A stretch of DNA of 64,000 nucleotides from an uncultured virus (IMG/VR IMGVR_UViG_3300037466_003063) (Duplodnaviria; Heunggongvirae; Uroviricota; Caudoviricetes), in IMG/VR virus record IMGVR_UViG_3300037466_003063; one strand, 5' to 3'. Made by a program: the position numbers and the translations under genes. Positions 8,672 through 55,743 of this stretch are shown here, piece after piece; within the stretch, counting starts at the first letter, position 1; every line of letters begins with the position of its first letter. Below the pieces are notes generated by a model. It did no database searches. It was not told the origin of the DNA and was given only the letters and a program-made list of their open reading frames with translations.

Positions 8672-8690
8672 GCTGGAAAGGTGAGGCACG

Positions 8691-29863: not shown

Positions 29864-30315
29864 CAGGCATCTCCCAAGGCAGTGTCTAGTTCGGCGGCCC
29901 ATTTGCCGACGCGCTGGCCGAGTTCTTCATTGCCACGGTCGGCGAGATAGTCCCGCTGCGCCGCACGGAGACCTCGGGCTGCGGCGATGATCCACCCTAT
30001 GCTGCCTGATTTCCGCTCAGCGACAGCAGTGTAGCCTGAAACACCAGAACCGCGGTGGACGACGCCGTTCTGCTCCATGCAAGCGACGCCCATGCCGACG
30101 ATCTTGCGGAGGATGTCTAGCGCTCCTTCGCTGGCCTTCGGATCGGCGTTGCGTGACAGAATGTCCTCGGCCTCGCGCAGGTAGGATCGAATGAACGTCA
30201 GCCAGCTGCCGACCGGATGGATGCCGTTGCTCGGCGTCGTCTCCGGATTCCAGCGCGTGTCCTGGTACAAGCGCTCGCCGTCGATCGCGGCGTAGACTTC
30301 GTGGCGAGATGTCAT
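29863..30315 (-). CDS. All-alpha MazG-like/NTP pyrophosphatase-related protein
   Basis: AIDGERLYQD.RW..H....W ... LRKIVGMGVACME. Confidence 0.5.
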   Translation of the reverse strand: MTSRHEVYAAIDGERLYQDTRWNPETTPSNGIHPVGSWLTFIRSYLREAEDILSRNADPKASEGALDILRKIVGMGVACMEQNGVVHRGSGVSGYTAVAERKSGSIGWIIAAARGLRAAQRDYLADRGNEELGQRVGKWAAELDTALGDA

Positions 30316-31244: not shown

Positions 31245-31555
31245 GCTGCGCTCCTCCGCGCTTGGGTTTCCCTGTGCCACTGCTCGAACAGGGCCAGCTT
31301 CGTCACGACGCGCTCGTCGATCCGGCCGAGGCTCAGATTGTTGCGGCGGATGAAGAACAGCATCGCTGCTTGTAGATCAGCGAGTTCTTCTTCGAGGCGG
31401 GTTGGCAGATGCGAACCGTCCCAATGGTCGGCGCGTCCCTCGTTACCGATGAGCTTGCCGCCGACCTGGATGACTTCGCCGCATTCCTCGATGAGCTTCG
31501 ACAGTCCCGGCCACAGGTCACCGCCGATGCTGAATTCCCCGTGTGGTCCGGTCAT
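31241..31555 (-). CDS. MazG-like nucleotide pyrophosphohydrolase
   Basis: KLIEECGEV...LEEELADL. Confidence 0.75.
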   Translation of the reverse strand: MTGPHGEFSIGGDLWPGLSKLIEECGEVIQVGGKLIGNEGRADHWDGSHLPTRLEEELADLQAAMLFFIRRNNLSLGRIDERVVTKLALFEQWHRETQARRSAA

Positions 31556-35117: not shown

Positions 35118-35495
35118 TCATGGCTGTTCGCCTTCGAAGCCTTCGAGCATGTGTCGAACCATCGCCTCGGCCTGCGTGTAGTCGAACAGGTTGGTGCCAA
35201 CGGGATTATGCCTGTATTCGTGAGCCGTCCCCTTATTGCCGACCGGGCAAAAGCTAACCCCTCCGTCAGGATGGAAGTCATCGGGAAGCCGCCAACCGAG
35301 GAAGCGTTCGGCCATGTGCTTGACCAGCGCCTCCCGCATAATCTCGCTGGCTTCGGGGTTAGGGGATGTGAGTTGCGCCGCAATGCGCTTCAGCCGTGCA
35401 GCTGCCTTGGTGGCGACGACATAGCCTACGTCCAATGACGCAAGCCACTCCGCATCGGTCACAATCGGTTTGGGTGTCGGAGGGGGTTGGGTCAT
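35118..35495 (-). CDS. Mosaic hypothetical protein
   Basis: Coupled ORF; shares 45 identical bp with 15809-15853. Confidence 0.7.
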   Translation of the reverse strand: MTQPPPTPKPIVTDAEWLASLDVGYVVATKAAARLKRIAAQLTSPNPEASEIMREALVKHMAERFLGWRLPDDFHPDGGVSFCPVGNKGTAHEYRHNPVGTNLFDYTQAEAMVRHMLEGFEGEQP

Positions 35496-36931: not shown

Positions 36932-37161
36932 GGCAGCGGCTCAGCGGGTCTCAGCGGCCGCAGCGGGTCTCCGCGCTCCCTGGCAGCGGGTCTCCGCGCG
37001 CTCCCTGGCAGCGGCTCAGCGGCCGCGCGCTCCCTGGCAGCGGGTCTCCGCGCACTCCCTGGCAGCGGCTCAGCGGCCGCAGCGGGTCTCCGCGCTCCCT
37101 GGCAGCGGCTCAGCGGCCGCAGCGGGTCTCCGCGCTCCCTGGCAGCGGCCGCAGCGGGTCT
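36932..37161 (+). repeat. Degenerate GC-rich tandem repeat, ~40-bp unit CAGCGGCTCAGCGGCCGCAGCGGGTCTCCGCGCTCCCTGG
   Basis: Sub-blocks repeated 5-6 times with deletions. Confidence 0.95.
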
Positions 37162-41023: not shown

Positions 41024-43925
41024 GGCTCAGCGCTCCCTTTTTGCTAGTCCGAAATCAGCCGGGTTGACCGATCCGCCAATCATGGGATTATCCCGCCATA
41101 GCTTCCCCGCGTCGCGATAGCCGCAACGCTCAGCAATGCAGTAAATCGAGTCGTAGTCTTCTAGCTCCTCTTTTGAGGAATAGACTTCCTGGACTCGCGC
41201 TTTCCATGATTGCGCCATTGGACTCACTTCCCCTTTTCCAGCTGCCAAGCGGGAAGCGTTACGGAGATGAACCGGGCCGCCGGTTCGATCACAAACGCGA
41301 ACGCGCACAATGCGAGCGCGGCCACGGTGATCATCTCAGCGACTCGGTTCATTCCTCGGCTCCCCTCTGTTGCCTAAGTTAAATGAACTAATCGGTTCAA
41401 CTAGTCAACTAAAAGTTGAATTATAGGATAACGCTCCGTCGCGCCGACGGTCCGTCATGGGCAGGACTCCAAGTCTTCAACGTAAAGGCGGAACGGCGGA
41501 AGCTCCGCAAAATAGTCTTCTTCTAGCTCCTCTACGCCGGCGCGCTCAGCCTCCGCGGCGATCATCCGGCGCCGTGCCTCTAGCGCCGCTTGCAGCGCTT
41601 CCCCGTTGCCTTTGACATAGTCGCGGATTGCAGCCTCAGCGGCCGCATAATCGAAACCTTCCTGCCGCTCCCCTCCGCCGTCTAAGTCATCGATCCATTG
41701 CCGCTCTAGGTCTCCGAGCGTGTAATCGGCCGGGTCCGCTAACAGAATGAATTCACGCTGAGACCTTAGCCGCTCCATGCCTTCCGCTGAGTCATCCGTT
41801 GAGTTGACGCGGTAGCGCGAAGCCGCGAGTCCTTCCCGCGTCACAAAACTGACTATTTCCGCCGGCTGGAGCGTGCCTAGCGTTTCGTCGACGAATCCGC
41901 ATGGGTCCGGCAACGGTTCCGAGGCGCGCGGTTCACGCTCCAGCGCTGCGCGCCAATAAGCCAGCGCGCTGGCAATGGTTGCGCGTTCCAGTTCATCGGC
42001 TCTAATCATCATCATTTCCCCTTCAGCAATTCCCCGAATTCATCCGTTTTCCTCGAACGGTCCGGCCGCGCCTGGATCCGTACGCATTCGCGGCAAGCGT
42101 TGGTTGACGTGTAACGCTCCCCATTGTGGCCGTACTTGCAAACCGGGCCGCTATAGAAACGCTCCCCGCGCTCCTCAGCGGCTTTGCGTGCTGCCGATTT
42201 AGGCCGCGGCATGATCCACGGCAGCGGCTAGAAGTTCGAGCGCCTTAGCGTCGCGTTCCCGTTTTGACGTGAATTCGCGCCGTATCTCTACGGCTTCGCC
42301 GGTTGCGGTTGAACGGGCCGCCTCAAATAAAACGAAGCGCCTACTGTTTGAGCCATTATAGGCACCTCTACGCAAGCCAAAGCGTTCTAGGTTTCGCGCC
42401 GATAAATCGAACCGCTGCCGTTCCCGCTTACGCTCATCGCGGACGCGCCGGTCATATGCGGCCGCTTCGCGCTTTGCGTCGCGGATAGCTCCTAACAGCG
42501 TCCGGCTTTCGCTTAGCGTCATGCCGGAATTGTCGGCCACAATGAAGCGGCGCGGACTCATCTCAATAACGTCAAAGCAACCGATTCCGGCGGCCGCTTC
42601 TTCATCTGTGACCGTGCGCGCCGTTATGACTTCATGGTGAATCATGACTAGCGCTCCCCTTTGAATTGCAGCGCGGCGCGCAAATGCCCGCGGCATTCCT
42701 CGACGGTGAGTCCGTCCGCGTACTGCCTCAGAAACCAATCGGCGAGCATCGAGTCCACGTCCGAATCGAGATAATCCGCAAAGGCTTGCGCTTCCTCGAC
42801 TCCGTCGCGGATGATCGATGATCGGTTAGCGCGGAATTCGCTTCCGCCTGGTAGCTCGTTAATCAGCACCTTGTTTCCGCTGAGACCCGCAACCGTTGCG
42901 AAGGCGCGGCTTCCACTGTGAAAGACTAGCTCTCCTACAGCGTATGACTCGCCGTCAACGTTGAATCGAAGTTCCGTCATCTCTCAGCGCTCCCCTATGA
43001 CTTCAGACATTTTGCGCGGCAGCACGCGAGTCCAATGCGTAATTGCTTGCGGCCCGTCGCGTCGTTTCCAATCGAGACATTCGGCCGCGTCTGTGCAATC
43101 AAGCAAAGTTCCATCGGCAAGCCGAATTACGTTCGCTTCATCGGCCGCGATCCCGTAGAGATTGCAGCGCCAAGTTGAGCCGAACGGCAGCGTTGGCAGC
43201 GTTTTCATGGTCTCAATTCCCCTGGTGCTGTGCGAGAATCACATAGGCGCGCCGTTCGCTCCAGCCGCGAGTCTGCAGTTCGGCGATTGCCTCAGCGTCG
43301 CTAATTTCGCCGGAGTCGTAGCGCTCCAGAATGTCCGCGTAGCTATACGGTTCAGCGTTCGGCGCTTGGAACCGCTCAAACGCGGCCATGACAAACGGGC
43401 CGGCAACTTCAGCCGCGTACGGTTCCGAGACTGAAGCTAGCTCCGTTCTCCCGTTCTCTTGCGGAACCTGGATGAATTCGGAGTCTTCATCGCCGCTCCC
43501 CGTGTCATAGTCGACGGTTACGCATTCGACAGCGACTCCAGCTGTCAGAATCGATTGCAGGACTCCGCCTTCCACTATGGCGACAATTCGGACCGGTTCA
43601 GACATGATCAGCGCTCCCCATTGAATCGGCGCGTTTTCCAGCCGCGACGCGCAGCGGCGCTCCGCTCTTTTGACTCGCGGATAGTTTCGAGCGCTGCGCG
43701 GCGGAACGCATAAGCGGAGCGCGCTTGATCAACCGCGTCCGCAGCGCCGTAACCGGCTGCCCTGGCGCGCCGGTAAGTCGGCGACTCAACTGCCTGCCTC
43801 ACTGTCAGCATGACTCATGCTCCCCTTAGAAAAACGTCCGCGCCAAAGCGATAAACCCGCAAACTAGAACGGCGATCAACATGAAAAGACCGTACATTGT
43901 TTTACCCTTTCGACTCGTGTGATTC

Positions 43926-43965
43926 TACTTAGGCAATATCGCTTAGGCAGTCAACTGAAAGTTGA
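43926..43965 (-). promoter_or_regulatory. Leftward sigma70-type promoter overlapped by operator
   Basis: TTGACT-17nt-TAAGTA on the minus strand; TCAAC-N5-GTTGA at 43951-43965. Confidence 0.75.
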
Positions 43966-43976
43966 ATTAACTCGGC

Positions 43977-44288
43977 TTAGTTGCAATGGAAGGCACGTCT
44001 TTTGAAGCCGGCGAACGTTGGCCGTCTCCTGCTATGGTGACCGCACAATCTGCAGAAGCGCGGCGCCTCTTTTCGATTCTTTAGGTGGCGCTCGAAACCG
44101 CGAGTCCCGCATTCCCATTTGTGCGCGACTGTGACTGTGCAACCCGCGGCTAGCGCTGCCTTGATCAGCGGCGATCCGCGGCCGGCTAAATGGTCCGCCA
44201 GTCGCTCCGCTACGCTCCGGCTAGTGAAACCGATATAATGACTCGCGTGCATATAAGCCGGCTCGATGTGGAGAATGTAGACGGCCAC
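43977..44288 (-). CDS. GIY-YIG-like nuclease
   Basis: VYILH..HYIGFT....RL..H..G.G. Confidence 0.75.
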   Translation of the reverse strand: MAVYILHIEPAYMHASHYIGFTSRSVAERLADHLAGRGSPLIKAALAAGCTVTVAHKWECGTRGFERHLKNRKEAPRFCRLCGHHSRRRPTFAGFKRRAFHCN

Positions 44289-46067
44289 GGCTTCACGGCT
44301 TCCGGAATCGGTTAAGCCATTTGACCGGCCGGACCGTTACGCGGTTGCGCTCCGCCAGTTGCGGCCAACGCTCAGCGGCTTTCATCATGGCGGCCGGTTG
44401 ATGATCCGCGCGAATTCGAGCTAGCCGCTTTATACGTAGTGGGCTGAGGGACTCGATTTCCCAGACTTCCCATAGCGACATTGACTCAACCCTTCCCGGC
44501 GCGTCGGCGATCCCGGCCGGCTTCCCATGCGGCGCGTTGCAGCACATGCGAGCGCGGCGGAGCGCGCAACCCTGCTAGGCCGCGGCGGTAAGAGTCGTGC
44601 AAGTAAGACGATTCGCCGTCATCCGGCCGCTCGAAAAACAGCCGATAAGTTGCCTCAGCTGCCGCGGTACGCTTCACGGCCGCCGACCGAATCGGTTGCG
44701 CTCAGCGGGCGCCCGCAATGTGTCGTTCCAGCGCGGCCCGATGATTGGCCTATGACGCGCGGCTGAGTCAGCCGCTAGTCTGTTATTTTCCTCATGCCAT
44801 TGTGCGGCCCAACGGTAGAAAGCAGCGGAACCGATGCAATTAGGGTTAGCGCTCAACGGATAACCCTGCGCACGTGCGGCCGCTCCATTGGTATAGCAAG
44901 CGGAGTCTTTCATCTCTCAGCGCTCCCCGTTCCCATTGGCCGCGGCTTCCGGATGATCCGTCAGGCCGCGCTCGATCACAGATTTGCGGCAATGCGGACA
45001 AGTCAACCGAGTCCGCCAGTCCGGCAAATGCTCGACAAGCGGCGGTTCATGGCCGTAGCGCGCACAATCGGCGGCCGGGTTGCTGCGGCGCGGTTCACGC
45101 ATAAAGCGGCGTTCAAATTCGCTCACGTTAGTAATCCGTTTCACAGTCTATTGACTCGACTATGCCTGTTTCGTCCACGTTGTACCGTGTGACAACTTCC
45201 CACGAATAGAAGTTGTCCGCTGGAACGGTGAGTCGATATTGCAACTCTTCAACGCTGACTTGTCCGAAGAAATCCCGGCCGGCGTTGATCAGCTGGACTC
45301 CGCGGTTAACCGCTTCCCCTAGCGTAGGATATTCGGAGTCGACTTCCTCAAACTCTTCAAAGTTGCCTAGCACGTCTAGCAGCGAGTCGGCGCTTTCTTC
45401 AGTCCAACCCTTTGCTTTGGCCGCTGCAACCATTTTGGCGCGCGGCATATAGCTCAGCTGGAACCGCTTCACTGAACGAACTCCCGCGCCTTTTCGCCTA
45501 GCAGGAAACGGCGCCGAATGACTCGCTCCTGGCGCTCCGCTTCGCGGATGATTGCGGCCGCATAGTCTCCGCCGGCCGCGTAGTGTTTCGGTTGTGCGTG
45601 CATCTCTCAGACTCCCTTTCCTAGCGCCATGCTGGCGAAATCGAACGGCTTGCTTAGGTCTATTTCTTGGATCCGTAGCGCCGTGCAACCGTGAACGTCT
45701 CTCAGCTGTGCAAGGTAGCGCTCAGCTTGGCCGCGGCTTGTTATCCGCTCCCCGTGCGGCGCGTCGAGCAAGAGGGACTCAGCGGCGCTCCCTGGCGCCT
45801 TTCCCCATATGACGAACTCAGCGGCCATGGTCTCAGCGCTCCCCGTTGATGCACTGATTCACCGCATAGACATCAAAGTCAGACGCGCGGGCGATAGCTT
45901 CCGCCTCATCGCGCGAGTCCGCTTCAACGGTGACCGTCTGCAGCGGCGGGTACGGGCCGCGGCGTAGGTCCCGGCCGTCTACGGCGAACGTATGCTGCGC
46001 GCCGCCGGCTTTGGGTAGATGATAACGGGTTGTCATCTCAACGAACTCCTTTTCGACTCGATGATTC

Positions 46068-46107
46068 AACTTAGGCGTTTCACTTAGGCAAGTCAACTCT
46101 AAGTTGA
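46068..46107 (-). promoter_or_regulatory. Leftward sigma70-type early promoter overlapped by operator
   Basis: TTGACT-17nt-TAAGTT on the minus strand; operator 46093-46107. Confidence 0.8.
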
Positions 46108-46114
46108 ATTCACA

Positions 46115-46197
46115 CGCATGATTCTACTTAGGCAATCCAGCTGTGCGCATCATTCTACTTAGGCAACGCCGGCGCTCGCATCATTCTACTTAGGCAA
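46115..46197 (+). repeat. Three copies of CGCATSATTCTACTTAGGCAA at 31-bp period
   Basis: ATTCTACTTAGGCAA at 46121, 46152, 46183. Confidence 0.95.
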
Positions 46198-46272
46198 GCG
46201 ATTGCAGCGCGTTCGATCAGCTGCCGCGCGTCGCTGCTAAGCCGCTGAGCTAGCGCGCCTTTTCATTTTTGC

Positions 46273-46318
46273 GGGTCCCTCTTCGACGGGGCGGCGCGGG
46301 CGGGAAGCGCTGAGCCGC
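46273..46318 (+). other. Candidate cos site (cosQ-like GGGTCCC and GAAGCGCTGAGC at 46304-46315)
   Basis: Resembles lambda cosQ GGGTCCT and (9/12) the Chi cohesive end GGTGCGCAGAGC as recalled; located where Chi-like phages have their ends. Confidence 0.55.
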
Positions 46319-46393
46319 AGAATTCGAGCCGATTCAACTTAGGCATAGGTGCTAATTTAACTTAGGCAAAGGCTGTATCGCACGAATAATACA

Positions 46394-46676
46394 GTGTGAC
46401 AGGGTGACAGGGTCGATCTGGGACCTGTCACACGATTTGCCGCAGAAATCCGCCGTTTGTGACAGGGTGACAGGGTGACAGCTTTTTCTATAGAGTGTCG
46501 AGGAGCAAAAGGGCTGAATCTGGGGCCGTACGGCAGCACCCGTGGTAGCGTGCCTAAGTAGAACGCTAAAGGAGAAGTTATTAGAAAACCGCTGTCACCC
46601 TGTCATCCTGTCACAACCCCGCAGAAAACTGCCGTTTTTCGTGTGACAGGTCCCGTGACAGGATCTGTGACAGGTC
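46394..46676. repeat. GTGACAGG iteron-like direct and inverted repeats, candidate replication origin
   Basis: About 12 copies of TGACAG/CTGTCA in tandem and inverted clusters around a central spacer. Confidence 0.7.
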
Positions 46677-46905
46677 CCCGATTCAACCGGATTCAGGGCA
46701 GAATCGACGATTCCTAAGTAGTATAGGTGCAAATTTCCGAAGTTCTGGGAAGGTTTTTTCGGGCCTGATTTGGCGCTCGATCGCCGCTGCCTAAGTCGAA
46801 TAGAAACCTCGCTGGAAACTGGTGATTTTGCAGGCCGTGAGGCTCAAGTGTTGACTCAACCGACAGTTGAAACTATGCGATTCGGAGTTGAAAAGGGGAC
46901 CAGTA

Positions 46906-49900
46906 ATGAGTCGCGAGAAGACCTACTACTTCGATGTGCGCGAAACGACTGTTCGGTCGGCTCAGGTGAACGCAAGCAGCGTCGCCGAGGCGCGGCAGAA
47001 GCTCGACGCATGGCTCGCCAGTAAAGGAGCGTCGAACGATGATGATTCGATCGTGCTCGGTGATCTGGATTCTGTCCGCATCACGTTCCGCTCGGTGCGC
47101 GACGTGAACGTTTATCCGCTGATCCCTGATGTCGATTGGCGTGAGGAAGTGATCGCGGAGCACATGGGAGAGCGGAAGTGAGCGCCAAACCGAAGCGCGC
47201 GGCCCAGAAGCCAGAGATGGACAAAACTAAGCCGCCGCTCGCGAAGCGGTGGGAAAATGCGCGGAAGCCAGGTCGAGCGAGGCTGTTCGGACTATATTGC
47301 GGCATCGGCAAGGTCATCACCGAGCGCGCCATGGAAGCGCTCGGCATTGAGCCGACGAAGAAGCGCACCGATCTCAGCGACGAGGAAGTGAGGGTCCTCA
47401 CCGAATTCCTTGAAGCCTATCTCGAAGGGAAGAAGGCGTGATGACCGATGAGGAAGAACGCGCGATCACGATCCACCGCAACGGCTTGCCGGCTGGTTAC
47501 CGCATCATCAACTTGCCGGACCTGATCGACTGGCTGCAGGGTCAGATGGCGCTCCATCAGCCGACGAACACGATTCCTGTGCCAACGGTCGACACGCTCG
47601 ACGGGCTGTGGGTCAACGTGACGACGATCGACGGCGAGCCGTTGCAGCCGCGTCCCGATAAGCTAGTCCTCGGCGCTTACTACGACGAAGCGAACAAATG
47701 GGTAACGACCGGACAGACGAACAGCGGCGCAGAATTTATGCGTTTCAGCGACGGCTCGCTCGAAGTCACCGTCAACAGCGAGTTCGAGAGCGATTCCTAC
47801 CGGCTACCAGCAGACGAGGTCGCGCAGCTGCTGGAGTTCCTGCGATGATCGGCGACCCGACGAATGCCGCTGAAGCGATCGACTATCTGCGTCGACACGG
47901 CGCTCAAGAGGGTTACGACCGCGGCGGCGACAAGATCATCGAAGCGGCTGACATCATCGCGGCCGAGATGCGAGCGCGCGACACGGTGCAGCCTGGTCAG
48001 ACCGTCTACGTGCAACTGGACACGCGCGACGGCGAGATGGTGCTGCACGCCGAGGTCACCGCAGAAGGCGGACCGCGCATCATTCTGAGGGAGGGCAGCA
48101 AGACGACGCTGCTGTTCGAGCGGAAATGAGCGGAAGAGTGCAACCGTTCAGCAGTTCCAAGCGGCTCCCCGCCGACGCAGCGGGATTGCGGCTCTGCAAG
48201 ATTTTCCCCGGCGACGATCTGCGGCTCTGCGAGCCAGTCGTGTTCACGAAGGGCAGGGCGGCCGTCGACACGGTACTGCGCCGTGCCGCGATCTCAGGGC
48301 GCGTCGAGATCGAACCAGGCAGCCCGCTTCCCGACCACTTCGCTGACATCATCGACAGCAAGGGCGACGCGGTTGGCAACGTCGCGCTCGACGCGAAGTC
48401 GTTCAAGGCGCTCAAAGAGCACTGGATGCGGTGCAAATACGAGGTGTACGAATGACGCTGCTACCCAAAGTGCAATTCGTCGCCGGCGAAGAACTCAAGA
48501 TCGGCCAGTGGGTCGCGATCAACAAGGAAGACGGCAAGCTCTACCGCGCCGTAGCGGGCAAGGACGAACGCGCCTTCTGCATTCCGCCCGAGGCGGTGTT
48601 CAAGGACGGCATTATGACGCTCCCTGAGTATCGGTGGCCGCTGAGATGAAACCCGTCGAGCAGCAGATCGCCGAGACCCGCGACTTGGGTGAGCTTCAGC
48701 GTTGGGCCGAGGCCATCCGGAAGCGGATCCGCGAGCTACGCGAAGAATTCGAGGCGACCGCCACACAGCAGCATGGAAAGGCGTAAGTTAATGCCCAACT
48801 CAGGTGATATGATTGAGCGGCGCTTGGCCGAGGAATTTGCCGCTGGCTATACGCCGGGTCGCGGGCAGTCGCTTATGGACTTGCTCGAAGAAGCATTCCT
48901 GTGGCTGCGAGAACGGTCAATCCCGGAAGCCCTCTCCTCACTTCCTCAATCAGATGATCGAGAATTGGTGGAGCGGTTATCGCGGCTTGATATGCGACAG
49001 GTTGATGCACCTGTTGTGATTGCTGAAGCGAAGTCACGCCTTCTCCAGCTATCCAGAGATGTGGATTTACTGCGAGAGGTGCTTGAGCGCATCCAGAAAG
49101 AGGACACGCGAACCGAGCGAACGCCGCACTTGTCTTATGCCGACGACCGCGAGTTGTGGACTGAACGCAAGATCGAAGGCCGTTGTGCGAAGATAGCTCG
49201 CGAAGCGCGTGCCGCAGTATCGTCTGGGACAACATGAGCATCCTCATTTCCCTGATCTCGGGCGGGGCAGCCATGCTGGCGAGCAGCTGGTTCGCTGCGA
49301 AACTCGTTCCAGAGCCGAAAAACAGCGTGCCGATTCCCCATCCGGAGCCGCCGTCGCTCTGGGAACCTGGCAGCACGGCATTCTGGCTGGATCCGGACCT
49401 ATGGAATCGCACGCCTGAGATCGACGACCGACTCGACATCTGCTGGATGCATCTCGATGGACCGATCCTGCGCCGCGAAGCCGTCGCCGGCAGACCGCTT
49501 CAGGTGATGTGGGGAACCCTGCGCCGCGAAATGCAGGTTCAGACGGTGTGGACGGACATCTACGGAAAACATCATCTGCCGCCGCCAGTTGACGGCGTAA
49601 GGCTTTGAGTTCAGGCTAATGCAATGGTGATCGCGTATATTATCGCGCTTCAATTTGCCGCCGATCCGCTCGACCAGGCGAAGGCCGCATACGAGCAGTG
49701 CGTCACTGCAGAAGCGGTTCACCTCGGTGCCGATAATCAGGAAAGCGCCGACACGATTCTTCGGGCGGTGAGGTTCAAATGCGAACCCGAGTGGCAGCAA
49801 CTGGCGGCCACGTTCCCGAGCGGCACCGGCGTGTTCATCGCGGAACAGGCACGATCGCGCGCTCTGGCGAAGTGGCATTCGGATGCGGAAGGCGCTGCGG

Positions 49901-50398
49901 TTGCGGCGTTGCTTTCAGTCCGTTTACAGCGCCAGGGGCGTAGGTAGGACTGCTTCACTGCCCCATCGCACCGGAACTGAACATCATCTCGTTGGCGATC
50001 ACGGCAATCATGCCCCATAAGAACATGACTACGACGGGCGCCACCATCCATTTTTCAGGAGGCCACTCCTCGGTGACGCGTGCGATCGTCGGGAATAAAC
50101 GTTTAAACACAACGCTTCTTAACGAAGATTAAGCAGCACGCCAACAGGGCAGAAAATTTGACCTGGATAGCAGTTGAAACTACACTCCAAAGTGGAAAGG
50201 AGTGAGATTATGCTGCAGACCGTCATCAACGATGTGATCGCCCAGGCTCGCCTGCGGATCGAGACTCGCGTGTCGACTGCCGAAGACGAAATCGTCGCCA
50301 TCGGCAAGGAGCTTTCGGCGCGTATCAGGAAGCGTGCTCTGCTTTCCGTCGCCGTCACCGCCGTCATCAGTTTCGCGCTCGGTGCGATTCTGTTTTAA
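46906..50398 (+). other. Rightward cluster of small hypothetical genes (46906-47181, 47178-47441, 47438-47848, 47845-48129, 48126-48455, 48452-48649, 48791-49237, 49234-49608, 49624-49947, 50210-50398)
   Basis: Coupled ORFs after a promoter/operator at 46851-46870. Confidence 0.7.
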
Positions 50399-50406
50399 TT
50401 GCGGTT

Positions 50407-50450
50407 TCAATAAACGGTTGACGTAGTCACGACTCGTCTGTAGTCAACCG
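50407..50450 (+). promoter_or_regulatory. Rightward promoter with operator
   Basis: TTGACG (50418) -17nt- TAGTCA (50441); TCAAT-N5-GTTGA at 50407-50421. Confidence 0.7.
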
Positions 50451-50452
50451 AA

Positions 50453-51117
50453 TCAGTCGGTGGCGACGGGAAGCATGGTAAGCCGGAGAGGGGTTGCAAA
50501 CCCTCAAAGGAGCCGCCCGAGACCCGCTTGGCCCGAGGTCTGGTTGCGATATATCGGGCAGAGAGAATCATCTTCCGGCGGCGGCCGGAACACCGACAAC
50601 GAGTTTGGGGACCGGTTACTTCCGCTCTGCAGAGAGGGAGCGATGGCCCAAATAAGCGAGGCTCTACGGCTCGCAGGACGATGCAGTTCTGCTTGCCGGA
50701 CATGCGGAGTGGCCGTGCCGCAGCTTCGACGAAGAACCCCCTCGGCGGGATCCTGCATCGGGTCGGCTGCCGAGGGGAGCGGTGACACCTGCGAGGCGGG
50801 GAGTGCTGCTGCTCTGGGATGGACGCACGGATCTGCGTTCGCCACACTAAGGAGTCGGCAGGATCCCACTCCCCTTCTCGCAGGTGAGCGCCGGCAGCGG
50901 GGTGGAGACTCAGCCTCGCAAGCGCTTAGGAGCATGACAGCCGGTAAATGCTCCCGCGAGTGGACCGTGAACGAGGGTGCTCCTGGCGTCCGACAGTCCT
51001 CATCCAGGTAGGGGAACGGCGAGTTCGGCCAAGGCGGTCTGTTGCGTCTTAGCCGGTTTCCTCGTCGGCCTCTGCTCGAAGCCCCGCCGGTCAACGCATG
51101 ACACCGGCGGGGCTTTT
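50453..51117 (+). ncRNA. Candidate large structured non-coding RNA (~660 nt)
   Basis: Promoter and terminator bracket a region with no credible ORF and more than 12 nested helices plus loop-loop complementarities. Confidence 0.7.
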
Positions 51118-51118
51118 C
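51079..51118 (+). terminator. Intrinsic terminator
   Basis: AAGCCCCGCCGGT/ACCGGCGGGGCTT followed by TT. Confidence 0.85.
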
Positions 51119-51190
51119 TGTTAGAAACCGCAGAACCAACGTAGTTGATTCGGGAAGGGACTGTCAGTGGCAGCTGATGGTCCCTTTTTT

Positions 51191-53800
51191 CTATACCCCG
51201 AACAGGTCGATCCCCATCTTGATGCGGTACGCTTCTTCATCACCGCGGTAGTAGAGCCGCTGCTGGCCGTAGGTCTTGTGCCGGTAGCGCTCGCCCCAAC
51301 AGAACCATCCCGGTACGAGCCGCATCGCGCGGCCGAGCGTCTGCGCCGCCTGCTGGTTGTACGATTTCGCGTCCGAGCCGAGGCATTCGACCCAGATTTC
51401 GACCAGGCAGGTTTCGTCGCGCGGCTTGGCCGGTCCTTCGTCGTCCATTCCGCCGGTCGACACAGGGCGATCAAGCCATGCAGCGATCCTGCCAGCGAGT
51501 GCGTCGTCCGCGGATTCGACCCGAGCAGACTCCTGCCGCCGTGCGGCAATCACCTTGGCTTCTTCGTCGTCGAGATAGAGCGGCAGCGTGCCACGTGGCT
51601 GCACCGAGCGCATCTGGCGGTAAATCGCCACCGCCTCGGCCCAAAGCTGGTCGACTTCGCGCTCCAGACGGTCGGTATCGATTTCCTCGACGTGGCAGCT
51701 GACCGGCCAGTAGCGGCGACCGCCGGTGTCGTCCTTCAGGTAGCGGTCGTCGTTGGTCGAACCGATGAAGATGCACTGCCGGTCGTACTGCTCGGCGCGG
51801 CGGTTGTAGGCGAGGCGAACCTTGTCGGTGCGGCGGCTGATGAACGCCTTGATGTGGCGAACGTCAGCGCGGGCGAAGCCGGAAAGCTCGGGGATTTCGA
51901 GGATCCATGCTCCCTGCATCAACTCGACCATCTGCTTGGCGTCCTCGAAGTCGCCGTCGAGTTCGGCGAACCAGCTTTTCGCGAGGATCGAGATGAAGGT
52001 CGATTTGCGCTTGCCCTGCAGACCTTCGAGAATCACCGCGAAGTCGAACTTGTGACCTGGCTCGAACACGCGGGTCACGCCGGCGGTGAGCATCAGCCGA
52101 GCTACAGACCGGTGGTAGGCGTCGTCGGGCGCCCCGACATATTCCACGAAAAGGCGCTCGATTCGCTCGGTTCCGTCCCACTGCAGACCGGAGAGATATT
52201 CCCGAACGGGGTGAAAGGCGTTCTTACGACCAGCGATGTTGATCGCTGCACGTAAATCTCGGTCGGGAACCTTGATCCCATAACCGCCCTGAGTTTCCGG
52301 AGCTTCGATGAGCGCCCTGATCGCATCGTCCTTGTCCTCGGTCCAGAAGTCCCCGTTGATCGTGTCCCGAAGCACCCATGACGGGCCTTCCAACTGCAGC
52401 GGCTGCTTCGCCTGGTTCTTCCGCTTCGGGTTTTTACGACCCGGCTGGCCGCGCTGCACGATTTCCTTGGTGAACTCGTTGTAGGAAGCGACGCCGCGCG
52501 TCCAGATGTCGTTCTCGACGATCAGCCGGAGGTTGTGCAGCGTCGGCTTGAGACCGCCTTCCTCGTTGAAGTGCAACAGCGACTTCCAGTCGAGCTTGAG
52601 CGCTTCGGCGCGCTCCTCGGGAGACAGGTCTAGCGCGGCGAGGTCGTCATCTTCGATGAGTTCGTCGAAGTCGCTGGATTCCCCCTCAAGCTCGTCGAAA
52701 TCGCTTGCCTCACTGCTTTTCTCAGGCGCCCGTGCAAGCTCGTCAAAGTCGCTCGCATCTCCGGCGTCATCCGAATCGAAACTATCATCGGTGGGTGCCT
52801 CCTCGAAGTCGTCGAACTGGTCGCGCAGCGCCGCGGCACGCGCATCCGCGGCCCATTGCCGAACGGTCGCCATTGTCACCGGCTGGCGGCGGTTGCGGCC
52901 GAACCCGCGCCACTTCTTGCGCATCTCACGCAAGCCAGCCTTGGTGTCGTCGAACTTCTCCGAGCGCTTCGACTGCTCGACCCAGAGATCGAAGCCGGCA
53001 TCGCTCGCACCGAACTGGTGGTGGAGCGCCTGCCCGAGCGTCACCCAATCGTGATAATCGTCTAAGCGCTCGACCGGCAGCGACTCAAGGTCGCGCTCCA
53101 TCTGACCCGGCTTGAAGGTCAGTGGCTCTCGCGTCTCGAATTCATACTCTGCGGTTTCAGCGGCGCCGAGCGATTCGATGACGTTCGCGGGAATGTGATG
53201 CACCTCGACGCCGAACAGCATCGAATCGAGGTCGAACGGCCGTTCCCAGACGTACGGTTTGCCGGTGTCGGGATGAATCGAGGGCGGCATCGCGACATGC
53301 TTGCCCGTACCGAAAAGTTCGATTTCCCAATCGTACGACCAGACCTCTTTCTTCCGGTCGTGGTCATAGCGCCGGTGCTTGCCCTCGCTGACCGCGAGCT
53401 TCTTGCCGAAGAAGGGCTTGTCGGTCGTGAAATAGAGGTGCCGTGATTCGCCGCCTGACCCTGACTGGACCGAGGGCAGCGCCTTTACATCGACACCGGG
53501 CAGCAGCTTGGCGAGCGCTTCCCGCGCTTCCTCGGCACATTCCGCGATGCGGATGTCCATGTCGATGACAAGCAGATAGTCGCCGTTGACCAGATGCGAC
53601 GGTTCACCGAGTCGCACGCCAAGATTGTTGCCGCGCGCGTGCGTCGACCGGAGCGTGTCGAGCGACGCGACGGCGCGTTCCGACCAATCGTTGCCGATCG
53701 GCCGCTTGGTGCGCGGATGCAGCCAATGACAGGCGAAGCCCGCATCGCGCAGCGGCCCGATGGCCGCGAGGACAGAATTATCGTGCGGATCGGTGCTCAT
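51191..53800 (-). CDS. Primase-helicase (Prim-Pol + PriCT-2 + VirE/SF3 ATPase)
   Basis: NLGVRLG, VIDMD, SGGESRHLYF; W..LGQALHH; GLQGKRKST; DDTGGRRYWPV. Confidence 0.93.
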   Translation of the reverse strand: MSTDPHDNSVLAAIGPLRDAGFACHWLHPRTKRPIGNDWSERAVASLDTLRSTHARGNNLGVRLGEPSHLVNGDYLLVIDMDIRIAECAEEAREALAKLLPGVDVKALPSVQSGSGGESRHLYFTTDKPFFGKKLAVSEGKHRRYDHDRKKEVWSYDWEIELFGTGKHVAMPPSIHPDTGKPYVWERPFDLDSMLFGVEVHHIPANVIESLGAAETAEYEFETREPLTFKPGQMERDLESLPVERLDDYHDWVTLGQALHHQFGASDAGFDLWVEQSKRSEKFDDTKAGLREMRKKWRGFGRNRRQPVTMATVRQWAADARAAALRDQFDDFEEAPTDDSFDSDDAGDASDFDELARAPEKSSEASDFDELEGESSDFDELIEDDDLAALDLSPEERAEALKLDWKSLLHFNEEGGLKPTLHNLRLIVENDIWTRGVASYNEFTKEIVQRGQPGRKNPKRKNQAKQPLQLEGPSWVLRDTINGDFWTEDKDDAIRALIEAPETQGGYGIKVPDRDLRAAINIAGRKNAFHPVREYLSGLQWDGTERIERLFVEYVGAPDDAYHRSVARLMLTAGVTRVFEPGHKFDFAVILEGLQGKRKSTFISILAKSWFAELDGDFEDAKQMVELMQGAWILEIPELSGFARADVRHIKAFISRRTDKVRLAYNRRAEQYDRQCIFIGSTNDDRYLKDDTGGRRYWPVSCHVEEIDTDRLEREVDQLWAEAVAIYRQMRSVQPRGTLPLYLDDEEAKVIAARRQESARVESADDALAGRIAAWLDRPVSTGGMDDEGPAKPRDETCLVEIWVECLGSDAKSYNQQAAQTLGRAMRLVPGWFCWGERYRHKTYGQQRLYYRGDEEAYRIKMGIDLFGV

Positions 53801-53841
53801 TCTTCACGTTGCGCCTTGAAAGAGATTGACGAGCAAGGCGC

Positions 53842-54141
53842 TCAGAAGAATGGGCAGAAGTCCTCGAACACTGGCGGCGCTCGATCGACCGCGGCGAGCG
53901 CGGCGACATTGTCCGGCTGATTGGCGACTCGGACCATCTCTCGCGCGTTGTCGGGAGTGACCTTGCCCTGGCGGAGCCACTTGTAGATCGCCTCGTGCGA
54001 CTTGCCGAGATCGCCTTTCAGCCTCTGCACGTCGAGCACGCCGAGGGTCGTGCGGTAGGTCGGAAAAATGCCAAGCAGCATGTTGTAAAGCGCGCCGGCG
54101 GCCCAATCGGGACGGCCGGGAATGCGGGTCTGGACGGTCAT
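53842..54141 (-). CDS. Cro-like HTH regulator
   Basis: L..DLGKSHEAIYKWLRQG; divergent from the replication operon. Confidence 0.7.
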   Translation of the reverse strand: MTVQTRIPGRPDWAAGALYNMLLGIFPTYRTTLGVLDVQRLKGDLGKSHEAIYKWLRQGKVTPDNAREMVRVANQPDNVAALAAVDRAPPVFEDFCPFF

Positions 54142-54299
54142 GGTCGCTCCTTCGTTCGCGGCGAACCTATGCGGAAGCGATGTGGAAATCAACCGTTTAG
54201 TGTTTCTGTCACCAAAGGGTTGAAACGTCGCGGCGGCTGTGCCACAAAATGCGCGACTCGCCGACATGGCCGTCACGGACCAACACGAAGGGACCATCA

Positions 54300-54869
54300 A
54301 TGAGCCTCGAAGAAAGACTCGCAGAAAACACTGCGGCGCTGAACCGCAACAGCGACCTGCTGGAGCGCGTCGTGGCCGGCCAGGAAGCCGCCATGGCGAA
54401 ACTCGAATCGAACAGCGGCAGCGGTCGCAAGCGTTCGACGAAGAAGGACGAACCGGCGGCAGGTGATTCGTCGGGAAACGCAGGCAACGAGCCTGCCGAC
54501 ACGGGATCGCAGGAGGGCGCTGCCGCAGCTGCGTCTGAACCTGAAGTCACCACGCAAACCGTCGCCGACATCGCGCAAGGCATCACCAGCGAAGCGCAGA
54601 TGAAGGAATATGTTTCGGCCTGGACCGGTGGAACCGAGGATCAGGATGAGCGTGCCAAGCGTGTCGGCTTGCTGAAGGCGATCGCCGGCAAGCTCGGCGT
54701 CTCCCCGAATTTCGCGTCACTTACGCCGCACGCCGCCAAGACGGTCTTCTTCATCGAGCGCGCGAAGGCTCTCGGTGTCGACGAAGTCGATGTGGAAGCC
54801 GCCTACGACTTCGACGGGGATCCCGCCCAAACCGTTGCCGCCGCCGCGCCGGCGAGCGACTTCGAGTAA
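54300..54869 (+). CDS. Hypothetical protein (MSLE..L.ENTAA family)
   Basis: Typical first gene of the Chi-like replication operon. Confidence 0.75.
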   Translation: MSLEERLAENTAALNRNSDLLERVVAGQEAAMAKLESNSGSGRKRSTKKDEPAAGDSSGNAGNEPADTGSQEGAAAAASEPEVTTQTVADIAQGITSEAQMKEYVSAWTGGTEDQDERAKRVGLLKAIAGKLGVSPNFASLTPHAAKTVFFIERAKALGVDEVDVEAAYDFDGDPAQTVAAAAPASDFE

Positions 54870-55206
54870 GCGGGACGGGCCGAGCGGTCGAACCAGGCGC
54901 GTCTTACCTCCCCTTCGCGCCGAGGCTTCGATCCAGTGAGGGTAACACCTCCCGGCCCAACCCGGCTCTCCGGCGACAGGCGGGTTTCCATCCCCTTGGC
55001 CCGCCTGTCACCCGAGCGCCGGATATGATGAACGCAAACCTGCCCAACAGGACCCTCGAAGACATTCTCGACATCGCGTTCGTGATGCGAGGTCTGCCGC
55101 GGCACGTTCGCGACATCAGCATTCTGGAATCGGAGAATGTCGTCGACTGTCGCGACCTGTTTCTCCGGCGGAGCCGCATGGCTGAATATCTCTGCAGCGA
55201 CGGCGC

Positions 55207-55743
55207 ATGAGCGAAGAGTGGAGAGATATTAACGGTCACGCAGGCTACCAGGTGAGCAACCTAGGTCGCGTGAGATCACTCGATCGAGTGAAAGTCTGCC
55301 GCGGTAGATGGGGGCTGTGCAAGCGTCGCCTCAAAGGTCGAATGCTAACGACGACGCGATTTCGTAATGGGTATCTCGGTATCGTGCTAGGAAGTGGCTC
55401 TAAATCTCATTTGGTACACCGTCTGGTTGCGCAAGCGTTCATTGCAAACCCGCTCGAACTTCCAGAAGTAAATCATAAAGATGGGATTAGAAGCAACAAT
55501 GTTGTCGGGAACTTGGAATGGGTAAGCAGCACCGGCAATAAATTGCATTCCTACCGAGAGTTGGGCCGGAAGCAGCACGAGTGGACAATTCCTGTCGCAC
55601 TTGTTGGCGGGTCTGAAAGATTGGAATTTCCGTCAGAGTTGGCAGCTGCAAAGCATCTCGGCGTGGACGCCGGAAGTATTCGTTCCGCCCTAAAGCGAGA
55701 TCATTGCTGCAGAGGTTGGCGCGTTGAAAGGATTGCGGCGTGA
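55207..55743 (+). CDS. NUMOD4-HNH homing endonuclease
   Basis: EEWRDI.G..GYQVSNLGRVRS; VHRLVA.AF; VNHKDG...NN...NLEW; lower GC. Confidence 0.93.
   Translation: MSEEWRDINGHAGYQVSNLGRVRSLDRVKVCRGRWGLCKRRLKGRMLTTTRFRNGYLGIVLGSGSKSHLVHRLVAQAFIANPLELPEVNHKDGIRSNNVVGNLEWVSSTGNKLHSYRELGRKQHEWTIPVALVGGSERLEFPSELAAAKHLGVDAGSIRSALKRDHCCRGWRVERIAA

What the first reader, a model, noticed from the sequence alone, without database searches (positions are those of the whole stretch)
50453..51117. Candidate large ornate phage ncRNA (~660 nt) with its own promoter and terminator
Seen: a sigma70-like promoter (TTGACG 50418, TAGTCA 50441) and a strong terminator (51079-51118) enclose a region whose ORFs lack an SD and look spurious. 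It is dense in nested helices: GTCGGTG 50456/CACCGAC 50591; GCCCGA 50531/TCGGGC 50554; TTCCGGC 50573/GCCGGAA 50584; TTTGGG 50604/CCCAAA 50647; TAAGCG 50653/CGCTTA 50923, enclosing TGCCGG 50694/CCGGCA 50891, which encloses CCCCTCGGC 50738/GCCGAGGGG 50769 and CACCTGCGAG..GGGGAGTG 50786-50805/CACTCCCC..CTCGCAGGTG 50867-50886; GGAGCAT 50929/ATGCTCC 50948; CGCGAGTGGACCG 50955/CGGTCTGTTGCG 51035; CCTGG 50982/CCAGG 51004. Possible long-range pairings: loop CGATGCAG 50679 with CTGCATCG 50753; GGGATCCTGC 50747 with GCAGGATCCC 50858; ACGAGG 50971 with CCTCGT 51060. Inference: a multi-domain pseudoknotted RNA comparable in size and architecture to the phage-associated GOLLD/ROOL classes. I do not recognise it as either, so it may be a new class, apparently under phage operator control.
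Basis: partly seen in the sequence, partly recalled or inferred. Interest (0 to 1): 0.92.

Follow-up and report, generated by a model that had tools for sequence, protein, structure and literature searches.

The report
Orphan folded non-coding tail in phage
A 0.7-kb protein-free stretch at the end of a strain-specific gene cassette of an uncultured soil phage folds better than chance and ends in two strong stop signals, but it has no relatives anywhere, so it is a plausible yet unproven structured RNA and not a shown cousin of the giant ornate phage RNAs.

Summary
The sequence features are real. The stretch has no codon periodicity. Its long ORFs have no relatives among 5.8 billion proteins.

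The + strand folds better than dinucleotide shuffles: z -4.6 with 80 shuffles, against -2.3 for the - strand. The excess lies in 50656-51118. The 5' third is near chance. Two tandem + strand terminators end the stretch against the convergent primase gene.

It hits no Rfam family. I found no homologue in phage, plasmid, IMG/VR, metagenome or GTDB searches, nor in five related phage genomes. Covariation therefore cannot be tested.

The proposed -10 box matches consensus at 2 of 6 positions.

In 4 of 4 soil runs a co-occurring minor allele lacks or replaces 50457-50951 and 51030-51191.

Best reading: the structured, non-coding 3' tail, or an ncRNA, of a lineage-specific accessory cassette in a ~70-kb Casjensviridae-like phage. 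A new ornate RNA class is possible but unsupported.

The parts
46867..50398 (+). Lineage-specific accessory cassette of about ten small ORFan genes, transcribed towards the primase gene. The candidate is its 3' end.
   Evidence: ORFs show codon-position GC periodicity. No Pfam, PHROG, NCBIfam or PADLOC hit passes a curated cutoff. In relatives L005, L006, L007 and L009 the DNA right after the primase stop matches window ~46270-46680 instead. The cassette DNA is absent from 5 of 5 related records, 4 of them at least 90% complete; the one weak 59-nt hit lies in a portal gene and was rejected.
50158..50186 (+). Promoter-like site TTGACC-17-TACACT upstream of the 62-codon gene. It is a possible start of a transcript that runs through the candidate.
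   Evidence: It is the only promoter-like site called in 49500-52000 and one of 3 called in 43000-55500, where shuffles give 2.8. This is a consensus match only.
50210..50398 (+). 62-aa ORFan protein with a hydrophobic C-terminal tail. It is the last gene before the candidate.
   Evidence: Translation. It matches only itself in 5.8 billion clustered proteins and in 1.84 billion representatives. Its mRNA 50193-50460 shows no excess folding, z +0.14.
50373..50397 (+). Weak terminator-like hairpin plus TTCTGTTTTA at the end of the 62-codon gene.
   Evidence: It has 6 pairs including G-T. The number of such sites in the region is not above shuffles.
50416..50449 (.).
   Evidence: Sequence. As RNA it forms a hairpin of -13.9 kcal/mol, z -2.6. 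There is no second good copy in the window: 1 exact match, and the others carry 2-3 mismatches. The shared unitig node 50427-50456 ends here.
50453..50655 (+). 5' third of the candidate, weakly structured.
   Evidence: z is -2.07 for 50453-50600 and -1.93 for 50601-50655 on the + strand, against -1.57 and -1.27 on the - strand. Only the hairpins 50488-50505 and 50574-50589 have probability above 0.9.
50656..50919 (+). Core domain. An 8-bp closing helix encloses hairpin a (50667-50698), hairpin b (50738-50777) and the long irregular hairpin c (50780-50893, 45 pairs). The loops of a and b are complementary over 6 of 6 nt.
   Evidence: -151.7 kcal/mol, z -5.72 on the + strand (0 of 200 shuffles) against -2.72 on the - strand. 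Pair probabilities are 0.9-1.0 for hairpins a, b and c but 0.2-0.3 for the closing helices. For the kissing loops, 1 of 214 shuffles reaches 6 nt.
50920..50991 (+). Hairpin domain 4, a marginal fold with competing alternatives.
Evidence: z -1.97 (+) against -0.81 (-).
51005..51078 (+). Long hairpin domain 5: 26 pairs, 6 of them G-U.
   Evidence: -38.0 kcal/mol, z -4.17 on the + strand (0 of 200) against -2.04 on the - strand. Probabilities are 0.7-0.93.
51078..51124 (+). Intrinsic terminator T1: a 13-bp GC-rich stem followed by UUUUCUGUU.
   Evidence: -28.3 kcal/mol, z -5.4. The U-tract is on the + strand only. A lower-depth contig in 3 of 4 runs carries the same stem with 7 loop bases missing.
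51152..51197 (+). Second + strand terminator T2: a hairpin followed by UUUUUUCU, abutting the primase stop codon.
   Evidence: -24.2 kcal/mol on the + strand against -17.8 on the - strand.
51191..53800 (-). Convergent primase-helicase gene (Prim-Pol, PriCT_2, VapE-like).
   Evidence: Pfam E 4e-76 for VapE-like, 2e-17 for PriCT_2 and 3e-16 for Prim-Pol. PHROG DNA helicase/primase families.
50457..50951 (.). Block missing or replaced in a co-occurring minor allele.
   Evidence: Joint 50456->50952 ('skips 495, between: not known') appears in 4 of 4 runs, on a contig of depth 17-26. The main-allele contig 50427-51272 has depth 94-102 in the two runs where it was listed.
50952..51029 (.). 78-nt island shared by the minor allele, with 2 listed differences at 50997-50998.
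   Evidence: tables 3 and 5.
51030..51191 (.). Second block missing or replaced in the minor allele. It holds the 3' half of domain 5 and both terminators. Similarity resumes at the primase stop codon.
   Evidence: Joint 51029->51192 appears in 4 of 4 runs. The three further differences at 51236, 51239 and 51242 all fall on third codon positions of the primase gene (frame).

Best explanation
The stretch 50399-51190 is the protein-free, transcribed 3' end of a 4.4-kb accessory cassette (46.87-51.19 kb). This roughly 70-kb Casjensviridae-like soil siphophage carries the cassette between its iteron region and the end of its primase gene. Its relatives have no cassette there.

Inferred mechanism. 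Rightward transcription starts either at the weak promoter-like palindrome at 50416-50449, or at the 50158 promoter by read-through past the 62-codon gene. It runs through the stretch and is stopped by two tandem + strand intrinsic terminators just before it would collide with the convergent primase gene.

On that RNA the 3' two-thirds (50656-51118) fold into stable hairpins. These are a three-hairpin domain with a possible loop-loop kiss, then two long hairpins, then the terminators. I take this to be a structured transcript tail, possibly released as a stand-alone ncRNA of 450-660 nt. Its likeliest job is in cis: it protects or times the decay of the cassette transcript, because long, nearly perfect duplexes are the kind of substrate RNase III cuts. 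It would also insulate the two convergent transcription units.

Shown: the stretch is non-coding, folds better than chance with a + strand bias, has + strand terminators, is an orphan, and is polymorphic in the population. Inferred: transcription, the 5' end, and any function.
For: Non-coding. Codon-position GC is flat. The + ORF has GC2 of about 0.67, against about 0.42 in real genes of this phage. The two long ORFs find only a 100% self-hit or nothing in 5.8 billion proteins. There are no family hits.

Folding. z is -4.6 on the + strand against -2.3 on the - strand. By segment, z is more negative on the + strand in 10 of 10 segments, three of which are nested in the core domain (D3). Non-overlapping segments hold 28 G-U among 221 pairs on the + strand, against 16 among 197 on the - strand. 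The neighbouring mRNA gives z +0.14, and the primase and polymerase mRNAs give +0.5 and -0.2. In a GC-corrected scan of 191 windows on both strands, the window at 50617 (+) is the most extreme of 382, at -3.55 sd.

Transcript end. T1 is -28.3 kcal/mol and T2 is -24.2, both with U-tracts on the + strand only.

Cassette context. Relatives have the iteron region directly after the primase gene (RcJoli). The cassette is absent from 5 of 5 related records.

Kissing loops: 1 of 214 shuffles matches the 6-nt loop-loop complementarity.
Against: There is no homologue, hence no covariation. There is no RNA evidence. The fold excess is modest and is exceeded elsewhere in the same genome: z -7.1 at 46288 and -6.8 at 8659. 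The 5' third folds near chance. The proposed -10 is poor. Many helices have mutually exclusive alternatives; repeated 8-mers such as CTCGCAGG and GCGAGGC can pair in several ways, so the drawn structure is uncertain. A co-occurring allele at about a fifth of the depth lacks or replaces the best-folded domain and both terminators, so the structure is not needed by every member of the population. The insulator and RNase III roles are inference only.
Confidence: 0.45

Rival explanations
1. This is a stand-alone, trans-acting, multi-domain 'ornate' RNA gene of a new class. It has its own regulated promoter (50418-50446), a 5' end near 50453 and a 3' end at T1. Tertiary contacts such as kissing loops and pseudoknots give it a defined 3D fold or oligomer, as in GOLLD and ROOL.
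For: It is about 660 nt long and matches no Rfam family. It has a strong + strand terminator and a good -35 box with 17-nt spacing. The minor allele diverges 3 nt after the proposed start, as if the unit from promoter to gene end were a swappable module. The 6-of-6 loop-loop complementarity between two high-probability hairpins is reached by 1 of 214 shuffles. The core domain has z -5.7.
Against: No homologue was found in any collection searched, so a 'class' has one member. The -10 matches consensus at 2 of 6 positions and the scan does not call it. The 5' third is near chance. The long-range helices are weak. The 13 hairpin loops of the MFE hold no GNRA tetraloop (read). The window has no tRNA genes, unlike the usual GOLLD/ROOL context (PMC5737381 passages). 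The fold is dispensable or replaced in a sister allele.
Confidence: 0.2
2. This is non-functional filler. It would be a recombination scar or decayed foreign DNA at a mosaic junction, in which only the terminators work. The other hairpins would be by-products of 65% GC and internal short repeats.
For: It is an orphan sequence in a cassette of ORFans. The whole cassette is polymorphic in the population, with many contig breaks and alternative alleles in 47.4-49.3 kb and here. The minor allele lacks or replaces most of it. Repeated 8-mers create several of the inverted repeats. Comparable z-scores occur elsewhere in the genome.
Against: 0 of 80 whole-length shuffles, and 0 of 200 shuffles for the core domain (D3), its long hairpin c and domain 5, fold as well. 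The + strand bias is consistent and G-U pairs are in excess on the + strand. The kissing-loop match is rare in shuffles. Phage genomes are under size pressure, and 0.7 kb of pure filler is uncommon (general knowledge).
Confidence: 0.2
3. This is a DNA-level element: the cohesive-end (cos) or packaging site, or a replication element made of single-strand hairpins beside the primase gene. It would not be an RNA.
For: In the closest cultured relatives (Rhodobacter phages such as RcJoli, Casjensviridae, primase 47-48% identical) the genome end lies about 0.7 kb downstream of the primase stop. Perfect inverted repeats are symmetric at the DNA level.
Against: In RcJoli the DNA between the genome end and the primase gene is an AT-rich repeat and iteron region. 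Its counterpart here is 46058-46800, with low GC, six or more copies of ACTTAGGCA, and GTGACAGG arrays, not the GC-rich candidate. The RcJoli ends show no similarity to the window. Folding is better on one strand with extra G-U pairs. The contig 50427-51272 spans the stretch without a break in 2 of 4 runs. The U-tracts make the two 3' hairpins terminators.
Confidence: 0.07
4. This is a protein-coding gene, either the 183-codon + ORF 50460-51011 or the 211-codon - ORF 50504-51139.
For: Long open frames exist on both strands. A gene caller predicted a 178-aa product on 3 public contigs (P0001).
Against: There is no codon periodicity and GC2 is about 0.67. No Shine-Dalgarno sequence precedes the GTG start. 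The only protein match is the self-hit. There are no Pfam, PHROG, NCBIfam or PADLOC hits above cutoffs. The minor allele removes or replaces most of both frames.
Confidence: 0.03

Closest known systems
ROOL and GOLLD RNAs, the large ornate RNAs often found in phages and prophages (PMC5737381, passages read; PMC12286853, abstract seen in a search listing)
   Same: The size range is similar: ROOL averages 581 nt, and this stretch is about 660 nt. It is phage-borne, non-coding, has no known function, and ends in a terminator.
   Different: It does not match their Rfam models. [quoted passage not shown] No tRNA genes are nearby. The stable part is mostly long hairpins. No covariation can be tested.
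Phage morons and accessory cassettes: promoter-gene-terminator units inserted between conserved genes (textbook knowledge from lambdoid phages; recalled, no paper read)
   Same: A lineage-specific block of ORFan genes sits between two conserved features, the iterons and the primase gene. It has promoter-like sites and strong terminators, and relatives lack it.
   Different: The last 0.7 kb of the block is non-coding and folds well, which is longer than an ordinary terminator region.
Structured 3' ends that control message decay, such as the RNase III site 'sib' downstream of lambda int and the RNase III hairpins of T7 early RNA (recalled, no paper read)
   Same: Long, irregular, nearly perfect hairpins of 26-45 pairs lie at the 3' end of an early-type operon, upstream of terminators.
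   Different: No cleavage has been shown or can be predicted here. The element is several times larger and has a branched domain.
Earlier notes of this scan on orphan or swappable structured phage RNAs (e1-5928547, e1-6040709; AI notes, unchecked here)
   Same: These are gene-free, folded stretches in soil or freshwater phages within a promoter-to-terminator frame, matching no family. In one of them the core differs completely between close relatives.
   Different: They come from different genomes. No sequence likeness to this window was found in the scan's index.

Membership tests
GOLLD RNA | Match to the Rfam covariance model at its gathering score | tested here: not met
   There were 0 matches over the whole window at gathering. 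GOLLD is not among the 6 weak local matches at E up to 10.
GOLLD RNA | Usual context: near tRNA genes, often in prophages (PMC5737381, ROOL section) | tested here: not met
   ARAGORN finds 0 tRNA or tmRNA genes in the 64-kb window. The phage context itself is met.
ROOL RNA | Match to the Rfam covariance model at its gathering score | tested here: not met
   as for GOLLD.
ROOL RNA | [quoted passage not shown] | not testable with these tools
   No homologue was found, so there is no alignment. The single-sequence MFE has 3 branch points in the core domain and weak long-range helices.
Intrinsic (Rho-independent) terminator | GC-rich hairpin immediately followed by a U-tract on the transcribed strand | tested here: met
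   T1 is 51078-51116 at -28.3 kcal/mol, followed by UUUUCUGUU. T2 is 51152-51189 at -24.2, followed by UUUUUUCU. On the - strand there are no U-tracts. The simple scanner missed T1 because its loop exceeds 8 nt.
Sigma-70-type promoter for the RNA | -35 and -10 hexamers close to consensus with a 16-18 nt spacer | tested here: inconclusive
   TTGACG matches at 5 of 6 positions and the spacer is 17 nt, but TAGTCA matches at 2 of 6 and lacks the final T. The scan does not call it. The host and its promoter rules are unknown.
Phage accessory cassette (moron-like insertion) | Present between conserved neighbours in this phage and absent at that place in relatives | tested here: met
   In L005, L006, L007 and L009 the iteron region follows the primase stop directly. 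The cassette DNA was found in 0 of 5 related records, apart from one rejected 59-nt hit.
cos site of Chi-like phages (Casjensviridae) | Genome termini with cohesive ends map inside the stretch | not testable with these tools
   Only contigs were available, not raw read ends. Indirect tests: no similarity to the RcJoli ends, and the RcJoli-like AT-rich repeat region lies at 46.06-46.8 kb instead.
Protein-coding gene | Codon periodicity and conserved homologues | tested here: not met

The most novel reading that the evidence does not exclude
The stretch is a true stand-alone structured RNA of a class not yet described. It would be a roughly 460-660-nt phage RNA whose core is held together by a loop-loop kiss. 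It would sit in a fixed promoter-to-terminator slot where closely related phages in the same soils carry a different RNA cargo, that is, a swappable RNA 'moron' rather than a protein one.
Probability: 0.2. Interest if true: 0.7.

Novelty: new member of a known kind. Interest (0 to 1): 0.3.

Why it matters
If the fold is real and functional, it would add to the growing list of large phage-borne RNAs with no known job. It would also be one that varies as a discrete module between co-existing strains, which would make gain and loss experiments natural. As it stands it is a single-lineage orphan. It shows that in GC-rich phage DNA a long ORF-free, hairpin-rich tail with good terminators can look like an ornate RNA without meeting the comparative standard. 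It is worth keeping as a candidate, but not as a discovery.

Tried and rejected
Homologue searches, all empty apart from copies of the same phage.
- blastn (distant mode) against 50,697 phage records found nothing, and against 72,556 plasmids found nothing.
- Exact 20-mer and 30-mer scans of IMG/VR each found 1 contig, 100% identical to the window.
- nhmmer and blastn against primase-anchored loci of 7 IMG/VR relatives (57-63% identity) and 11 metagenome relatives (48-68%) found only self copies.
- BLAST of the whole cassette against 5 related records gave one 59-nt hit inside a portal gene, which I rejected.
- A covariance model of the core domain scored at most 13.2 bits (E 0.36 or worse) in 19 other sources, and hit 0 of 5 related records.
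- I used the spurious ORFs as proxies for DNA likeness. Searches of 5.8 billion proteins gave a self-hit only, or nothing. IMG/VR gave a self-hit only. GTDB genome contigs gave one Enterobacter locus seeded by the search pattern itself, inside a 514-codon gene and with no DNA likeness, which I rejected.
- Neighbour anchors: the 107-aa and 62-aa cassette proteins occur only on the same IMG/VR contig. The 62-aa protein is an ORFan in both large protein sets.

Other checks.
- Sequencing runs: 11 DNA runs of soil or rhizosphere hold the stretch, and no RNA holder is listed. This says nothing about expression.
- The scan's own index has nothing near this place and no look-alike sequence.
- G001 turned out to be a fragment of the same phage that does not cover the locus.
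- I looked for DGR-type diversification. No reverse transcriptase or integrase appeared among the 59 ORFs scanned with Pfam.
- tRNA or tmRNA: none. Tandem repeats inside the candidate: none.
- I could not obtain the sequence of the minor allele. The metagenome and run tools were at their caps.
Full report
WHAT THE WINDOW IS.
The window is most of a roughly 70-kb tailed phage from soil or rhizosphere metagenomes.
- It carries a lambda-family portal, an S49 protease, an E-type major capsid protein, pre-tape-measure and tape-measure proteins, a muramidase, ThyX, and a replication block. That block holds Prim-Pol/VapE primase-helicase, an HNH endonuclease, a DUF2800 exonuclease, a Gp2.5-like SSB, a DNA polymerase and a helicase.
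- The closest cultured relatives by primase are Rhodobacter capsulatus phages such as RcJoli (Casjensviridae), at 47-48% amino-acid identity.
- An IMG/VR record of the same phage (G001, 100% identical) joins the window's right end to its left end through 5,906 further bases. This gives a circular map of 69,906 bp.
- A second IMG/VR contig is identical to the window across the locus.
- Eleven DNA runs of soil or rhizosphere hold the stretch.

THE OBSERVATION.
14 of the 16 pairs are exact complements.

The stretch is non-coding.
- GC at the three codon positions is flat (0.62-0.67), whereas the adjacent primase gene shows 0.8-0.9 against 0.36-0.45.
- In the frame of the 183-codon + ORF, GC2 is about 0.67. 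Real genes of this phage have about 0.42.
- That ORF finds only a 100%-identical self-hit among 5.8 billion proteins, and the 211-codon - strand ORF finds nothing.
- Pfam, PHROGs, NCBIfam and PADLOC give nothing above cutoffs.

FOLDING.
- The + strand MFE is -331.7 kcal/mol. With my 80 dinucleotide-preserving shuffles the mean is -297.3 +/- 7.5, giving z -4.6, and the lowest shuffle is -319.1.
- The - strand gives -288.1 and z -2.3 with 40 shuffles. The tool's 20 shuffles gave -6.2 and -2.6.
- In a GC-corrected scan of 191 windows of 665 nt on both strands, the window at 50617 (+) is the most extreme of 382, at -3.55 sd. The exact candidate is at -2.86. The best window that does not overlap it is at -3.28.

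The excess is not unique. The iteron region (46288, +) reaches z -7.1 and a stretch at 8659 (+) reaches -6.8. Ordinary coding stretches sit at +0.5, -0.2 and -0.8, and the mRNA just upstream (50193-50460) sits at +0.14.

The excess is also unevenly spread (200 shuffles each; + strand z / - strand z):
- 50453-50600: -2.1 / -1.6
- 50601-50655: -1.9 / -1.3
- 50656-50919: -5.7 / -2.7
- 50920-50991: -2.0 / -0.8
- 51005-51078: -4.2 / -2.0
- terminator: -5.9 / -4.7

The + strand has the more negative z in 10 of 10 segments, three of which are nested in the core domain. It holds 28 G-U among 221 pairs, against 16 among 197 on the - strand. This bias is what RNA-level selection on the + strand would give. 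It is modest.

STRUCTURE.
High-probability elements are:
- hairpins 50488-50505 and 50574-50589;
- hairpin a, 50667-50698;
- hairpin b, 50738-50777 (16 pairs);
- the long irregular hairpin c, 50780-50893 (45 pairs);
- the hairpin 51007-51076 (26 pairs);
- the terminator.

The helices that would close these into domains have probabilities of only 0.2-0.45.

Perfect inverted repeats of 10 nt or more number 3, against 0.31 +/- 0.56 in 200 shuffles. Several 8-mers recur and can pair in more than one way, so alternatives abound.

One tertiary proposal stands out. The 6-nt loops of hairpins a and b (GAUGCA and UGCAUC) are fully complementary, and 1 of 214 shuffles reaches a 6-nt loop-loop match. This test is post hoc and holds for both strands. 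The 10-nt GGGATCCTGC/GCAGGATCCC pairing competes with helices of probability 0.9 or more. I saw no GNRA tetraloop among the 13 hairpin loops.

ENDS OF THE UNIT.
- The 3' end is clear. T1 (51078-51116, -28.3 kcal/mol, then UUUUCUGUU) and T2 (51152-51189, -24.2, then U6) are both + strand terminators. On the - strand the same hairpins lack U-tracts. T2 abuts the stop codon of the convergent primase gene (51191).
- The 5' end is not clear. TTGACG-17-TAGTCA has a good -35 but a -10 that matches at 2 of 6 positions, and the scan does not call it. It lies in a palindrome (GGTTGAC-N20-GTCAACC) that occurs once in the window.
- The only site called nearby is TTGACC-17-TACACT at 50158, ahead of the 62-codon gene. 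That gene ends in a weak terminator-like hairpin. Read-through from that gene is therefore as likely as a separate start.

CONTEXT.
- Upstream lie about ten small + strand genes (46867-50398) with coding periodicity but no family.
- The last of them encodes a 62-aa protein with a hydrophobic tail. It is an ORFan in 5.8 billion and in 1.84 billion proteins.
- Left of the cassette is a low-GC, ORF-poor region (46058-46800) full of repeats: six or more ACTTAGGCA units, plus GTGACAGG arrays with an inverted partner.
- In four relatives with primase 57-60% identical (L005, L006, L007, L009), the DNA right after the primase stop matches this repeat region. In RcJoli, iterons and then the genome end follow the primase gene.
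- So the 4.4 kb from 46.87 to 51.19 kb, candidate included, is an insertion peculiar to this lineage. It is transcribed towards the primase gene. BLAST of the cassette against five related records (four at least 90% complete) found only a 59-nt chance match in a portal gene.

NO RELATIVES.
Rfam has no match: 0 at gathering over the window, and the best local hits are 14-17 bits at E 2-9 against gathering scores of 42-168. All homologue searches came back empty or with copies of the same phage. These were nucleotide searches, exact-word scans, primase-anchored loci, neighbour-protein anchors, ORF proxies in three collections, and a covariance model of the core domain.

POPULATION DATA (contigs, at least 80% likeness).
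- The main allele is one 846-nt contig, 50427-51272, with no differences. Its depth is 94 in X1 and 102 in X3.
- In 4 of 4 runs a second contig, of depth 17-26, shares only three pieces. These are 50427-50456; 50952-51029, with two changes at 50997-98; and 51192 onward, with changes at 51236, 51239 and 51242. All three of those last changes fall on third codon positions of the primase gene.
- In X1 the flanking contig depth (119.8) is about the sum of the three alleles (93.9 + 17.3 + 9.7).
- So a close sister lineage, diverged only at synonymous sites in the primase tail, lacks or has replaced the best-folded core (50457-50951). It also lacks or has replaced the 3' hairpin and terminators (51030-51191).
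- The tool could not say whether other letters stand in between, and I could not fetch that contig.
- A third, rarer contig keeps the T1 stem but has 7 loop bases fewer, which fits a conserved terminator function.
This would suit module exchange, but it equally suits plain deletion.
- Other parts of the cassette (47.4-49.3 kb) are also polymorphic, so the variability is not special to the candidate.

READING.
I put most weight (0.45) on a transcribed, non-coding, structured tail of an accessory cassette, possibly released as an ncRNA. Its stable long hairpins and double terminator would shape the stability of the transcript and keep it from running into the primase gene. The rivals are:
- a true stand-alone ornate RNA of a new class (0.2);
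- functionless filler in which only the terminators work (0.2);
- a DNA-level site such as cos (0.07). An earlier scan note (e1-195360) and the position of the genome end in RcJoli raised this rival. The composition, the strand bias and the location of the RcJoli-like repeat region at 46 kb make it unlikely;
- a protein gene (0.03).

COMPARISON WITH KNOWN FAMILIES.
[quoted passage not shown] GOLLD and ROOL often lie near tRNA genes and in prophages (PMC5737381, abstract and ROOL section read; PMC12286853, abstract only). Here the size and the phage setting agree. The models do not match, there are no tRNA genes in the window, and no conserved architecture can be shown. The stretch works more like a moron-type cassette end with an unusually long, folded tail.

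VERDICT.
The interpretation as a GOLLD/ROOL-like new class is not supported by anything beyond single-sequence folding. It remains a reasonable orphan ncRNA candidate of modest interest.

Noticed in passing
window 46058-46800: A low-GC (0.52-0.55), ORF-poor repeat region. It holds six or more copies of ATTCTACTTAGGCA (one more at 43916, and inverted copies at 46551, 46711 and 46788) and GTGACAGG arrays with a 31-nt inverted partner (46457-46487 / 46586-46616). RNA folding z is -7.1. It is probably the replication origin or a divergent regulatory hub. In relatives and in RcJoli it sits directly after the primase gene.
   Followed up: partly
window 15688-15823 and 49071-49206: A 136-nt inverted repeat, 90% complementary, links the tail-gene region and the accessory cassette. 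It doubles the contig depth at 49042-49275 in all four runs.
   Followed up: no
window 15809-15853 and 35324-35368: A 45-nt exact direct repeat with copies 19.5 kb apart.
   Followed up: no
window 36950-37148: A GC-rich tandem array with units of 25, 29 and 40 nt (CGCGCTCCCTGGCAGCGG...), lying inside or beside small ORFs.
   Followed up: no
window 8659-9323 (+): Strong excess folding (z -6.8 against 30 shuffles) over the pre-tape-measure gene and the gap before the tape-measure gene. This may be a frameshift or terminator structure.
   Followed up: no
window 47400-49300: The accessory cassette is microdiverse in the soil population. There are several alternative contigs with clustered SNPs and small indels (for example 47678-47734) and skipped pieces (48813-48941, 48967-49049), while the flanks show no differences.
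   Followed up: no
whole window plus record G001: The same phage's IMG/VR fragment bridges window end to window start through 5,906 nt. The map is therefore circular and about 69.9 kb, and the terminase genes probably lie in the part outside the window.
   Followed up: partly
window 30312-31280 (-) and 55207-55743 (+): The phage encodes an Rv2179c-like 3'-5' exoribonuclease (Pfam E 6.5e-37) and a free-standing NUMOD4/HNH homing-type endonuclease inside the replication block.
   Followed up: no
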